Assembly: GCA_001792345.1 (NCBI GenBank)
Contig: MGGJ01000001.1
Location: 217,710-281,709, forward strand
DNA from: Candidatus Woesebacteria bacterium RIFCSPHIGHO2_01_FULL_39_32
Lineage (GTDB): Bacteria > Patescibacteriota > Microgenomatia > UBA8517
Direction: 5' to 3'
Length of the DNA: 64,000 nucleotides
The position numbers and the translations under genes are program-made. Position 1 is the stretch's first letter. The number at the start of each line of letters is the position of its first letter. Under the pieces are notes generated by a model, which made no database searches, was not told where the DNA came from, and saw only the letters and a program-made list of their open reading frames with translations. Positions 58,794 through 59,840 of this stretch are shown one piece after another.

Positions 58794-59840
58794 TCAAAAG
58801 TTTTCTTTTTTCAAATCAAAGCTAACTTTGTAGGTAAATAAGCTTATGTCTTTTTGATCATATAGTGAATATTTAAGTTTTTCTTCAGCATCAAGTACGA
58901 CAACCGTTCCCTTAACTTTTCTTTCTTCAGCCAGATTTCTTTTTACCCAAGAAATATATCTTAAAGTTTGACCGACAACTGCGTCAGAAGACCTTCCTTT
59001 TTTAAGCTCTATAACAAGATATTCCTTGTCGTCTTTTGACTTTGCCAGAATATCAATAAATCCAATATCTGTGGGGTATTGCTGACTTGTTAGTTCATTT
59101 CCCTCACCATATATAAGATCATATTTTTTACCGAATATTGTTTTGTCCCAATTTGCTATAAGAAAGTCTTCAAGGTGTTTTTCCATTCCGAATACGACAG
59201 GATCTTCGATTCCAAGTTCTTTCAATTCTTCCTCGATTTGTTCTTCATTTTCGTCGACCTTTCCTGCAAAAGGACTTGCGCCTGCAATATCCCCAAGCAC
59301 TCCGTCAAGTTGCCACAAACTTATATTGTGCATATTTGATAATTCTAAAAGAACTTCATTAATTTTTTTGAATTTATCACCAAATTTATAGTTTCTTTGA
59401 AAACTCGGAAAAAGGTTAAGTTTTTTAAGAGCAGCCTCACTTTTGGTATTCCAGATACCATATTTTTCAGGGTAAACAACCATAAGAATTGCTGTAATAA
59501 TTGCCCTTCCTATGCCTTTAACCCAGTAACCTCCATTTTCAATAAACTCTGTATTTAAACGCTTCTCTAGGGTTAATTTCTCATCCAATACATGCTTTAA
59601 AAATCGTTTGAGGGCATTCATATCGGAAGTAATAATATTTCCTTGCCTATGAATTCCTTCCCAATGCAGATTGTTTTTAATAAGAAGAAAAGATTTAAAG
59701 TCCTCCTTGGTAAGTTTATCCAAATTTTTGGGTTGAAAAAGCTGACCGTATTTGCCGATAACTTGCTGTTCAGAAGTACCTTGCCACCAAGGATCATTTA
59801 CAGCTTTTTCTTTGATAACCTTCTCAATCACAGAACTCAT
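58794..59840 (-). CDS. PD-(D/E)xK nuclease with NucS-C/DUF91-type endonuclease domain fused to an unknown N-terminal domain
   Basis: C-terminal IGFIDILAKSKDDKEYLVIELKKGRSSDAVVGQTLRYISWV matches the GxIDLLAxD...LVVIELKRG...QLLRY signature of NucS/EndoMS C-domains. Confidence 0.55.
   Translation of the reverse strand: MSSVIEKVIKEKAVNDPWWQGTSEQQVIGKYGQLFQPKNLDKLTKEDFKSFLLIKNNLHWEGIHRQGNIITSDMNALKRFLKHVLDEKLTLEKRLNTEFIENGGYWVKGIGRAIITAILMVVYPEKYGIWNTKSEAALKKLNLFPSFQRNYKFGDKFKKINEVLLELSNMHNISLWQLDGVLGDIAGASPFAGKVDENEEQIEEELKELGIEDPVVFGMEKHLEDFLIANWDKTIFGKKYDLIYGEGNELTSQQYPTDIGFIDILAKSKDDKEYLVIELKKGRSSDAVVGQTLRYISWVKRNLAEERKVKGTVVVLDAEEKLKYSLYDQKDISLFTYKVSFDLKKENF

What the first reader, a model, noticed from the sequence alone, without database searches (positions are those of the whole stretch)
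58794..59840. NucS-C/DUF91-type endonuclease domain fused to a 230-aa uncharacterised N-terminal domain
The C-terminal ~90 aa carry a very clean GFIDILAKSKDDKEYLVIELKKGRSSDAVVGQTLRY signature of NucS/EndoMS-type PD-(D/E)xK nucleases. The N-terminal two-thirds have no recognisable motif. Such fusions are typical of type IV restriction-like or other defence nucleases, where the N-domain senses modified or foreign DNA. It is encoded convergently, 8 bp from the amidase gene, inside the repeat-flanked module.
Basis: partly seen in the sequence, partly recalled or inferred. Interest (0 to 1): 0.55.

Follow-up and report, generated by a model that had tools for sequence, protein, structure and literature searches.

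The report
Modified-DNA-sensing restriction nuclease (END type)
This gene encodes a stand-alone anti-phage restriction enzyme in which a catalytically disabled DNA-repair glycosylase domain probably detects unusual (modified) bases and a NucS-type nuclease cuts the DNA; the design was described in 2025 as an "END nuclease", so this is a new member of a known kind.

Summary
The ORF at 58794-59840 (-), 348 aa, is real, and the NucS-type PD-(D/E)xK nuclease is confirmed (Pfam NucS_C, Foldseek to NucS/EndoMS, invariant D263/E278/K280). The "uncharacterised" N-terminus is a ~186-aa all-alpha domain. Its confident AlphaFold model matches only HhH-GPD DNA glycosylases, best the archaeal-type Ogg enzymes. 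Inferred by HhH register (not by a significant alignment), the catalytic Lys position is Ala113 and the catalytic Asp position is Asn131 (Asn in 148/148 relatives).

The domain is a promiscuous module (1187 clusters). It is fused to NucS-like, HNH and NOV_C nucleases and above all to McrB GTPases (with McrC). It also shares polypeptides with the reader domains EVE, SRA, PUA, DpnI_C and MrcB_N.

Orthologues have no conserved neighbours. They sit among R-M genes and on plasmids, once inside a type I R-M operon, and are scattered across bacterial and archaeal phyla.

This matches the "END nucleases" of Yee et al. 2025. Their NucS-type example, END-Mag, restricts phages with modified guanine.

The "repeat-flanked module" is not: the repeat is an island-wide intergenic motif. 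Verdict: new member of a known kind, moderate interest.

The parts
58794..59840 (-). Complete gene, 348 aa: sensor domain, acidic linker, nuclease
   Evidence: ORF list. Identical to hypothetical protein A2715_05370 of Candidatus Woesebacteria (P0001). 1113 homologues, the best 120 full-length.
59283..59840 (-). N-terminal sensor domain, aa 1-186: all-alpha HhH-GPD (archaeal-Ogg-like) glycosylase fold, predicted catalytically inactive ('iEndoIII'-type)
   Evidence: AF2 model of the domain alone: pLDDT 91.8, pTM 0.89. Foldseek against PDB: all 50 top hits are HhH-GPD glycosylases; best are MjOgg 3knt, Tm1821 3n0u (TM 0.56) and SsOgg 3fhg, prob 0.99-1.0. No significant sequence hit in Pfam or PDB.
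59643..59675 (-). Family signature NNxHWxGIHRQ (aa 56-66), candidate base-pocket or DNA-wedge residues
   Evidence: N56, N57, H59, W60, I63 and R65 are invariant in 44 orthologues. N57, H59, W60 and R65 are nearly invariant in 150 family representatives. The functional role is inferred.
59475..59528 (-). Helix-hairpin-helix motif YWVKGIGRAIITAILMVV (aa 105-122); A113 (59502-59504) occupies the Nth K120 / MutY S120 position
   Evidence: G109, G111 and A113 are invariant. The best local hhalign match to E. coli MutY is HhH on HhH, though not significant on its own. Gapless register with Nth and MutY. Position 113 is never Lys in 150 representatives.
59448..59450 (-). Asn131 codon, at the position of the catalytic Asp of HhH-GPD glycosylases (Nth/MutY D138), 18 residues after the Lys position and N-capping helix 132-140
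   Evidence: Register. Helix boundaries in the AF2 model. Asn in 44/44 orthologues and in 148/148 aligned representatives of all architectures.
59205..59282 (-). Acidic flexible linker, aa 187-212
   Evidence: pLDDT 51-60, below 50 for aa 194-200. 9 of 26 residues are D/E. Variable in length and sequence in the alignment.
58806..59204 (-). NucS-like PD-(D/E)xK nuclease domain, aa 213-345, with catalytic D263 (59052-59054), E278 (59007-59009), K280 (59001-59003), plus Q291 and Y295
   Evidence: Pfam NucS_C E=2.7e-9. PADLOC PDC-S02 E=1e-51. phmmer alignment to P. abyssi NucS 2vld pairs D263, E278, K280, Q291 and Y295 with identical NucS residues in conserved motifs. Foldseek 2vld E=5.8e-5, rmsd 2.7 A. 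All five residues invariant in 44 sequences.
59851..59879 (-). Own promoter-like site TCGACA-17 nt-TATAAT; the -10 box ends 10 nt before the ATG and there is no Shine-Dalgarno, so the mRNA is nearly leaderless
   Evidence: Promoter scan, 11 of 12 matches; sequence read. This is a consensus match only.
59894..59955 (-). Copy of the island-wide intergenic repeat (type A element, core CTTCAAATTTGTCCTC) upstream of the gene's promoter
Evidence: (D6). Function unknown.

Best explanation
The gene encodes a single-polypeptide, modification-dependent (type IV-like) restriction endonuclease of the recently described END class. The N-terminal domain is a derivative of an HhH-GPD DNA glycosylase, closest to archaeal-type Ogg. 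It keeps the DNA-binding helix-hairpin-helix and probably the base-flipping pocket, but the catalytic Lys is replaced by Ala113 and the catalytic Asp by Asn131. It therefore probably binds non-canonical bases in invading DNA without excising them. A flexible acidic linker joins it to a NucS-type PD-(D/E)xK nuclease with an intact D-E-K site, which then cuts the DNA. By analogy with NucS/EndoMS the nuclease probably acts as a dimer and makes double-strand breaks. Host DNA is spared because it lacks the modification, so no methyltransferase partner is needed. By analogy with END-Mag, the likeliest targets are phage genomes with modified guanines (for example 7-deazaguanine derivatives). Shown here: the fold of both domains, the intact nuclease triad, the modular distribution of the sensor, and the variable, defence-rich, plasmid-borne contexts. 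Inferred: the mapping of Ala113 and Asn131 onto the glycosylase catalytic positions, inactivity of the sensor as a glycosylase, base flipping, dimeric cleavage, substrate identity, and the anti-phage phenotype of this particular protein.
For: Nuclease: Pfam NucS_C; Foldseek NucS/EndoMS; D263/E278/K280/Q291/Y295 aligned to NucS and invariant. Sensor fold: all 50 best PDB matches are HhH-GPD glycosylases, Ogg2-type best, prob up to 1.0, TM up to 0.56, from a model with pLDDT 91.8. Active-site loss: A113 maps to K120 and N131 to D138 in gapless register with E. coli Nth and MutY; N131 is Asn in 148/148 representatives and position 113 is never Lys. Sensor role: 1187 clusters carry the domain. Partners are AAA_5/McrB in 14 of 20 long proteins, plus MrcB_N, DpnI_C, EVE and PUA-like, HNH_2, NOV_C and SRA, and a bona fide McrB+McrC pair. 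40 of 150 representatives are sensor-to-NucS-like fusions. The same nuclease (about 55% identity) carries an unrelated N-domain in the canonical PDC-S02 protein next to HsdR. Context: the target is the only gene shared by 7 loci; neighbours include N6_Mtase/Eco57I+HsdS, ResIII+MTase+AAA_13, a serine recombinase and paired N6_N4 MTases. On a Paracoccus plasmid the relative is embedded in hsdR-FRG-hsdM-X-hsdS. The distribution is patchy across bacterial and archaeal phyla and includes plasmids. Literature: Yee et al. 2025 (PMC12191111) report the iEndoIII sensor fused to a NucS-like PD-DExK nuclease and to McrB. END-Mag has the same top structural relatives (SsOgg, MjOgg, TmOgg) and restricts phages with modified G but not those with modified T/C or unmodified DNA.
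Against: No experiment exists on this protein or on any CPR orthologue. Sequence-level homology to END-Mag (MDV2503288.1) could not be checked because the sequence was not retrievable. The link of the N-domain to HhH-GPD rests on predicted-structure similarity with modest Foldseek E-values (2.6e-3 and weaker) and high rmsd. hhalign to Nth and MutY is not significant, and PF21790 is touched only weakly (E=0.26; E=0.0014 in a McrB-fused relative). The active-site mapping is by motif register, not by structural superposition. Lack of the Asp does not prove inactivity: from my own knowledge, E. coli Tag works without it. The window locus has no adjacent classical defence gene. A different PDC-S02 representative gave no protection against T4, T5 or T7 in E. 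coli.
Confidence: 0.78

Rival explanations
1. Housekeeping DNA-repair endonuclease of CPR bacteria. The Ogg-like domain recognises an oxidised or otherwise damaged base (or an abasic site), and the NucS-type nuclease incises next to it, in a nucleotide-incision or alternative-excision repair route for reduced genomes.
For: The closest structures are 8-oxoguanine glycosylases. NucS/EndoMS is itself a repair nuclease. The family is well conserved (47-84% identity) across many Patescibacteria. In the window the gene lies between housekeeping blocks, dcw/FtsZ and Obg, with no R-M gene adjacent.
Against: There is no conserved synteny: the target is the only shared gene in 7 loci. Neighbours are often R-M, methyltransferase or recombinase genes. 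Relatives are plasmid-borne and one is embedded in a type I R-M operon. The distribution is patchy and crosses domains. The sensor domain is mainly attached to McrB/McrC and co-occurs with modified-base readers. The tested relative END-Mag is an anti-phage enzyme.
Confidence: 0.08
2. Two-step glycosylase-nuclease restriction. The N-domain is still an active, non-canonical monofunctional glycosylase that removes a labile modified base from phage DNA, and the NucS-like domain then cleaves at the abasic site.
For: The complete glycosylase fold, with HhH and a very strongly conserved pocket-like motif, is retained. An invariant acidic residue (D179) exists elsewhere in the domain. From my own knowledge, some HhH glycosylases (E. 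coli Tag) act without the catalytic Asp. Glycosylase-based phage defence exists (Brig1, cited).
Against: Asn at the Asp position is universal and the Lys position is never Lys. From my own knowledge, D-to-N substitutions inactivate MutY, OGG1 and AlkA; the D138N MutY structure 1mun appears among the hits. The authors of the END paper conclude that their sensor domain is inactive. The usual partner, McrB/McrC, is a system that needs only a reader.
Confidence: 0.08
3. A cargo gene of a mobile or cassette-like island, whose nuclease serves the element (addiction or homing) rather than host immunity.
For: The gene sits in a ~7-kb island of small same-strand ORFs separated by an oriented repeat. 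Degenerate copies of the motif flank the orthologue in the closest relative. The gene is found on plasmids and near recombinases and transposases.
Against: No integrase or transposase lies within 10 kb in this genome. The repeats are not found as arrays in viral contigs. The gene is found in many unrelated contexts without the repeat. No antitoxin-like partner is conserved.
Confidence: 0.04

Closest known systems
END nucleases, NucS-type subgroup (END-Mag, MDV2503288.1; Yee et al. 2025, bioRxiv 10.1101/2025.03.31.646159)
   Same: Inactivated EndoIII/Ogg-like sensor fused to a NucS-like PD-(D/E)xK nuclease. The sensor's closest structures are the same three archaeal-type Ogg enzymes (SsOgg, MjOgg, T. 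maritima Ogg). The same sensor is also found on McrB GTPases. No methyltransferase partner.
   Different: Sequence identity to END-Mag is unknown because its sequence could not be retrieved. This protein is from a CPR bacterium (Woesebacteria) and is untested. [quoted passage not shown] Here the sensor is N-terminal, the nuclease is PD-(D/E)xK, and PF21790 is barely detectable.
NucS / EndoMS mismatch endonuclease (PDB 2vld, 5gke)
   Same: The C-terminal catalytic domain has the same fold and the same D-E-K / Q..RY residues.
   Different: It lacks the NucS N-terminal dimerisation/DNA-binding domain, which is replaced by the Ogg-like sensor. It scores 31-36 bits against NCBIfam NucS equivalogs whose cut-offs are 216-252. 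Its context and distribution are those of a defence gene, not of a mismatch-repair gene.
PADLOC candidate system PDC-S02
   Same: The nuclease half matches PDC-S02 profiles at E=1e-51. Canonical PDC-S02 proteins are likewise single-gene, NucS_C-containing proteins found next to R-M genes.
   Different: Only the C-terminal 144 profile positions match; the N-terminal 163 positions of the PDC-S02 profile are a different domain. PDC-S02 is an unvalidated candidate, and one representative gave no protection against T4, T5 or T7.
McrBC and fused type IV enzymes with reader domains (EVE/SRA/PUA-HNH, DpnI_C, MrcB_N)
   Same: The logic is the same: a variable base-flipping or modification-reading domain is attached to a nuclease or to the McrB motor. 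The sensor of this protein is itself used as a McrB N-terminal reader, with McrC downstream.
   Different: The enzyme is NTP-independent and a single chain.
Archaeal-type 8-oxoguanine DNA glycosylases (Ogg2: MjOgg, SsOgg, Tm1821)
   Same: Overall two-lobed all-alpha HhH-GPD fold over about 200 residues.
   Different: Ala replaces the catalytic Lys and Asn replaces the catalytic Asp. There is no detectable sequence similarity. The domain is fused to a nuclease. It is not a repair glycosylase.

Membership tests
END nucleases (Yee et al. 2025) | Contains an EndoIII/Ogg-like (HhH-GPD fold) domain | tested here: met
   Foldseek on the domain model: all 50 top PDB hits are HhH-GPD glycosylases; Ogg2-type prob 0.99-1.0, TM 0.43-0.56. 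The model has pLDDT 91.8. This is fold-level only; sequence methods are not significant.
END nucleases (Yee et al. 2025) | The glycosylase catalytic residues are lost (inactivated sensor) | tested here: met
   Gapless HhH register with E. coli Nth and MutY puts A113 at K120/S120 and N131 at D138. Asn in 148/148 representatives and never Lys at position 113. The mapping is by motif and helix register, not by superposition, and inactivity itself is inferred.
END nucleases (Yee et al. 2025) | Sensor fused to a nuclease with an intact active site | tested here: met
   NucS_C domain with invariant D263/E278/K280.
END nucleases (Yee et al. 2025) | Sequence homology to a validated member (END-Mag, MDV2503288.1) | not tested
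   The accession was not found among 20 NCBI-sourced homologues, and no supplementary text is held.
END nucleases (Yee et al. 2025) | Restricts phages with hypermodified DNA but not unmodified phages | not testable with these tools
   Needs plaque assays or in-vitro cleavage.
NucS/EndoMS mismatch-repair endonuclease | C-terminal PD-(D/E)xK catalytic domain (NucS_C) | tested here: met
   Pfam PF01939 at 37.5 bits against a cut-off of 24; Foldseek 2vld and 5gke.
NucS/EndoMS mismatch-repair endonuclease | NucS N-terminal dimerisation/DNA-binding domain and full-length equivalog score | tested here: not met
   NCBIfam NucS equivalogs score 36.1 and 30.8 bits against cut-offs of 216 and 252, and the matches are confined to the C-terminal part of the protein (best stretches aa 245-323 and 200-311). 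The N-terminal 186 aa have a different, HhH-GPD fold.
PADLOC PDC-S02 candidate | Full-length match to a PDC-S02 profile | tested here: not met
   Only aa 202-345 match profile positions 164-307 of 308. A canonical member matches 1-307 at E=1e-148.
Type IV (modification-dependent) restriction enzymes, fused reader-nuclease type | A DNA-modification reader domain joined to a nuclease, with no cognate methyltransferase required | tested here: met
The architecture is shown. No methyltransferase is conserved next to orthologues.
Type IV (modification-dependent) restriction enzymes, fused reader-nuclease type | Cleavage depends on a base modification | not testable with these tools
   A biochemical assay is needed.
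HhH-GPD DNA glycosylases (Ogg2/EndoIII/MutY) | Catalytic Asp after the HhH and Gly/Pro loop (and Lys in bifunctional enzymes) | tested here: not met
   N131 and A113 occupy these positions, invariantly.

The most novel reading that the evidence does not exclude
The CPR/Patescibacteria clade of this family (47-84% identical, very abundant in groundwater metagenomes) may recognise a class of DNA modification different from the modified guanines targeted by END-Mag. Alternatively, its sensor may retain a cryptic, Asp-independent glycosylase chemistry, so that restriction proceeds by base excision followed by NucS-type cleavage at the abasic site. Either would reveal an unknown DNA modification in phages of ultra-small bacteria or a new two-step restriction mechanism. 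A separate possibility is that the oriented intergenic repeats of the surrounding island mark a new kind of gene-cassette or co-regulated accessory-gene array in CPR genomes.
Probability: 0.12. Interest if true: 0.65.

Novelty: new member of a known kind. Interest (0 to 1): 0.38.

Why it matters
It shows that END-type modification-sensing nucleases are common in Candidate Phyla Radiation bacteria and in some archaea. That implies phages with hypermodified DNA are a significant pressure even on these ultra-small symbionts.

It also gives the sensor domain a sharper definition. The domain has no Pfam model: no family reaches the gathering score, and the nearest, PF21790, is only weakly touched. 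The working definition is the signature NNxHW..R, GxG[RK]A..T, an invariant Asn at the catalytic-Asp position, and W..D.

The survey widens the sensor's effector repertoire beyond what the preprint lists, adding HNH_2 and NOV_C nucleases and co-resident SRA, EVE, DpnI_C and MrcB_N readers.

Practically, such enzymes could become reagents for detecting modified bases, and the family definition would improve defence-system annotation. It currently splits between "NucS domain protein", "DUF91" and a partial PDC-S02 hit.

Tried and rejected
- Sequence-only identification of the N-domain failed. Pfam, NCBIfam, PADLOC and PHROGs gave no hit. A profile search of PDB sequences gave only noise.
- hhalign of the N-domain profile against single E. 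coli Nth and MutY sequences was not significant (Prob <1%). I used it only for the HhH register.
- I looked for END-Mag (MDV2503288.1) among 20 NCBI-sourced homologues and in the paper's supplements without success.
- Conserved two-gene system: the Cas4-like PDDEXK_1 gene recurs near the target in the window, L005 and L006. However, the L005 copy is only 23% identical, and the other loci have no neighbour matching it in the all-vs-all BLAST. Rejected as an obligate partner.
- Integron-like cassette array for the repeat-rich island: no integrase within 10 kb, no attC-like signature seen by eye, no Rfam family, no arrays in viral contigs (the 17 single hits are at chance level by my estimate). 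Left unexplained.
- Housekeeping repair role: rejected as the main reading on context and distribution.
- Phage-encoded copies: none in 50,697 phage records.
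Full report
**The observation**

The quoted signature GFIDILAKSKDDKEYLVIELKKGRSSDAVVGQTLRY is aa 260-295. It runs convergently into an Amidase_3 gene (58103-58786, +; Pfam E=7e-34), with 7 bp between the two stop codons.

The protein is 100% identical to a hypothetical protein of Candidatus Woesebacteria bacterium RIFCSPHIGHO2_01_FULL_39_32. It has 1113 homologues, and the best 120 are full-length at 47-100% identity, mostly from Patescibacteria metagenomes. The two-domain protein is therefore a conserved family, not an accident of one genome.

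**The nuclease**

- Pfam NucS_C scores 37.5 bits (cut-off 24; E=2.7e-9) on aa 239-315.
- PADLOC's candidate PDC-S02 profile matches aa 202-345 at E=1e-51.
- A pairwise alignment to P. abyssi NucS (2vld) pairs D263, E278, K280, Q291 and Y295 with identical NucS residues in conserved motifs. From my own knowledge, D, E and K are the NucS catalytic triad.
- All five residues are invariant in 44 orthologues.
- The AlphaFold model (mean pLDDT 86.7) superposes on NucS and EndoMS (Foldseek E=5.8e-5, rmsd 2.7 A).

The protein is not a NucS orthologue. NCBIfam NucS equivalogs score 31-36 bits against cut-offs of 216-252, and the NucS N-terminal domain is absent.

**The N-terminal region**

This region consists of a ~186-aa all-alpha domain followed by a ~26-aa acidic linker of low confidence. 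Sequence methods see nothing: no Pfam, NCBIfam, PADLOC or PHROGs family, and no PDB sequence with a profile.

Modelled alone, the domain is very confident (pLDDT 91.8, pTM 0.89). All 50 of its best PDB matches are HhH-GPD DNA glycosylases:

- First come the archaeal-type 8-oxoguanine glycosylases: MjOgg 3knt/3fhf, T. maritima Tm1821 3n0u and SsOgg 3fhg (probability 0.99-1.0, TM up to 0.56, about 210 aligned columns).
- MutY, OGG1 and endonuclease III follow.
- E-values are modest (2.6e-3 at best) and rmsd is high. The assignment is fold-level, but it is uniform across the hit list.

**The glycosylase active site**

The conserved segment YWVKGIGRAIITAILMVV (aa 105-122) is a helix-hairpin-helix. 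The best local hhalign match to E. coli MutY is HhH on HhH, although it is not significant on its own.

In gapless register with E. coli Nth and MutY, G109/G111/R112 align with G116/G118/R119. A113 falls on Nth K120 (MutY S120). N131 falls on the catalytic D138 of both enzymes. In the model N131 sits immediately before helix 132-140, as the catalytic Asp does in this superfamily (the role of the Asp is from my own knowledge).

A113 and N131 are invariant in the 44 orthologues. In 150 diverse representatives of the domain family, position 131 is Asn in 148 of 148 aligned sequences and position 113 is never Lys. The domain therefore looks like a glycosylase that has lost its chemistry and kept its DNA- and base-binding scaffold. 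Inactivity itself is an inference.

**What the N-domain does elsewhere**

An exhaustive profile search found the domain in 1187 cluster representatives (333 at E<=1e-30), in proteins of 96-1768 aa and at varying positions.

- Among the best 150, 40 are sensor-to-NucS-like nuclease fusions (the sensor always N-terminal), at least 29 carry a P-loop partner, 40 are short, and 41 have other partners.
- Of 20 long proteins scanned, 14 carry a McrB-type AAA_5 module. Individual proteins also contain MrcB_N, DpnI_C, EVE, PUA-like or DUF2461.
- Ten further proteins showed HNH_2 nucleases (three), a NOV_C nuclease-like domain, an SRA domain and YbjN.
- In an Acidobacteriota chromosome the domain heads a 502-aa McrB-like GTPase that is followed by a true McrC (PF10117, E=1e-25). 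In that protein Pfam PF21790 "OGG-like" is weakly detected on the domain (E=0.0014).

Conversely, the same nuclease (about 55% identical) carries an unrelated N-terminus in a Sphingomonas protein. That protein is the canonical full-length PDC-S02 (E=1e-148) and lies next to a type I HsdR gene. Sensor and nuclease are thus independently shuffled modules, the hallmark of modification-dependent restriction enzymes.

**Genomic context**

Seven loci with orthologues share no gene other than the target (all-vs-all BLAST). Neighbours include:

- N6_Mtase/Eco57I with HsdS;
- ResIII, an N6_N4 methyltransferase, an AAA_13 ATPase and a PDDEXK_1 protein;
- a LexA-like repressor and paired N6_N4 methyltransferases;
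- a serine recombinase, Hypoth_Ymh, and the same methyltransferase block.

Across species-representative genomes, the full-length protein appears in CPR groups, Gammaproteobacteria, Actinomycetes, Acidobacteriota, and Bathyarchaeia and Thermoplasmata MAGs at 36-71% identity (binning errors are possible). Full-length relatives also lie on plasmids of Paracoccus and haloarchaea. In Paracoccus the gene is embedded in hsdR-FRG-hsdM-X-hsdS with overlapping stops and starts. No phage record carries it.

In the window itself the gene has its own near-consensus promoter: TCGACA-17-TATAAT, with the -10 box ending 10 nt before the ATG and no Shine-Dalgarno. It sits in a ~7-kb island of small ORFs between the dcw/FtsZ block and Obg. 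These features argue for a mobile defence gene and against a housekeeping repair role.

**Comparison with what is known**

Yee et al. (bioRxiv 2025, PMC12191111) defined "END nucleases": defence enzymes in which an inactivated EndoIII/Ogg domain (iEndoIII) senses hypermodified phage DNA.

- Their founding enzymes have an N-terminal PLD nuclease.
[quoted passage not shown] It restricted phages with modified guanine (Pa5oct, Bas19/20/21/25), but not phages with modified T/C or unmodified DNA.

These partner domains and top structures are the ones I obtained independently. I could not retrieve the END-Mag sequence, so orthology is not shown. On architecture, fold and loss of catalytic residues, the window protein meets the definition of the class.

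PDC-S02, which shares the nuclease, is only a candidate system. One representative gave no protection against T4, T5 or T7.

**Mechanism proposed**

1. The Ogg-like sensor binds DNA through the HhH and captures a non-canonical base in its pocket without excising it (inferred).
2. The NucS-like domain, probably as a dimer as in NucS/EndoMS, cleaves nearby (inferred).
3. Host DNA is spared for lack of the modification.
4. By analogy with END-Mag, the most likely substrates are modified guanines. This step is the least certain.

Rivals are a lesion-directed repair nuclease, a still-active Asp-independent glycosylase coupled to AP-site cleavage, and an element-serving nuclease. Their weights are given in the rival-explanations section.

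**The "repeat-flanked module"**

The 62-nt pair (56896-56957 and 59894-59955, 81% identical) is real. However, its core, CTYCAAATTTGWCCCC on the coding strand, occurs 11 times between 56.9 and 64 kb. All copies have one orientation, lie in nearly every intergenic gap, and none occurs elsewhere in the window (0.13 expected).

Two element types exist: a ~70-nt unit, and a ~150-nt composite with an invariant 32-nt core containing a palindrome. Degenerate copies flank the orthologue in the closest relative. There is no Rfam family, no integrase within 10 kb and no arrays in viral contigs. The repeats are an unexplained property of the island, not a boundary of a module that contains the nuclease.

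**Verdict**

The thing is a new, untested member of a recently described kind: a NucS-type END nuclease from a CPR bacterium. The extra value here is the residue-level definition of the sensor family, its wider effector repertoire (HNH_2, NOV_C, additional readers), and its abundance in CPR and archaeal genomes. Interest is moderate.

Noticed in passing
window 56900-64000 (sites 56940, 57810, 59938, 60360, 60647, 61030, 61413, 61540, 62284, 62426, 63330, 63963); also L001 4247-8811: An oriented intergenic motif, CTYCAAATTTGWCCCC on the minus strand with a 10-bp palindromic core TCAAATTTGA, occurs 11 times (0.13 expected). All copies lie in a ~7-kb island of small minus-strand ORFs and none lies in the other 57 kb. 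One exact copy lies beyond Obg, outside the window. Function unknown; it could be an operator/regulon motif, a cassette boundary or a MITE.
   Followed up: partly
window 61395-61570, 62265-62455, 63845-63995: A composite ~150-nt intergenic element is present in three copies. It starts with a copy of the motif above; a second copy follows at the 3' end in two of the three copies. The invariant 32-nt core, CTATTCTCACATTCTTGAGAATGTTGGAATAA, contains the inverted repeat ACATTCT-TG-AGAATGT. No Rfam hit and no exact match in viral contigs.
   Followed up: partly
L006 6954-9129: In the closest relative (Microgenomates; orthologue 75% identical), degenerate copies of the same motif sit 33 bp upstream of the orthologue's ATG, 13 bp after its stop, and in the next gaps (5 matches, 0.41 expected). 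The motif-gene association is therefore conserved between genomes.
   Followed up: partly
window 61561-62247 (-): A Cas4-like PDDEXK_1 protein of 228 aa with conserved cysteines (C19, C22, C206, C209, suggesting an Fe-S cluster) has no CRISPR context. A 63%-identical copy lies 1.6 kb from the orthologue in L006, and a 23%-identical one lies directly upstream of the orthologue in L005.
   Followed up: partly
window 59959-60264 (-), 61056-61385 (-); L006 1283-1525, 9248-9484: A family of small (80-110 aa) coiled-coil proteins is repeated within the island and shared with the related locus (43-57% identity). It has weak similarity to XhlA/P10-like coiled coils only.
   Followed up: no
L109 (Paracoccus seriniphilus plasmid p420573) 2145-11189: A full-length relative (36% identical) is embedded in a type I R-M operon, hsdR - FRG domain - hsdM - relative - hsdS, with overlapping start and stop codons.
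   Followed up: yes
L008 10400-14378 and L009 8745-12789: Two unrelated loci carry the same four-gene block close to the orthologue, in opposite orientation relative to it: two N6_N4 DNA methyltransferases, a ~145-aa protein and a ~500-aa DEAD-like protein (34-49% identity). This may be another defence module.
   Followed up: no
proteins P0148, P0219, P0260 (HNH_2); P0202 (NOV_C); P0267 (SAD_SRA); P0133 (pentapeptide repeats); P0180 (YbjN): The Ogg-like sensor domain is also fused to HNH_2 nucleases, a NOV_C domain, an SRA reader, pentapeptide repeats and YbjN. These partners go beyond the NucS-like and McrB fusions listed in the END-nuclease preprint.
   Followed up: partly
window 58103-58786 (+): The neighbouring Amidase_3 (CwlD/AmiC-like) protein has an N-terminal signal or transmembrane segment. 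It is convergent with the nuclease, 7 bp apart. No functional link is apparent, and it is absent from the other orthologue loci.
   Followed up: yes
L003 vs L001, about 12312-12940 in locus coordinates (window ~56900-57500): A sister assembly of the same organism is about 61 bp shorter in the small-ORF/repeat region downstream of the amidase, judged from shifted gene coordinates only. This hints at strain-level indel variation at a repeat unit.
   Followed up: no
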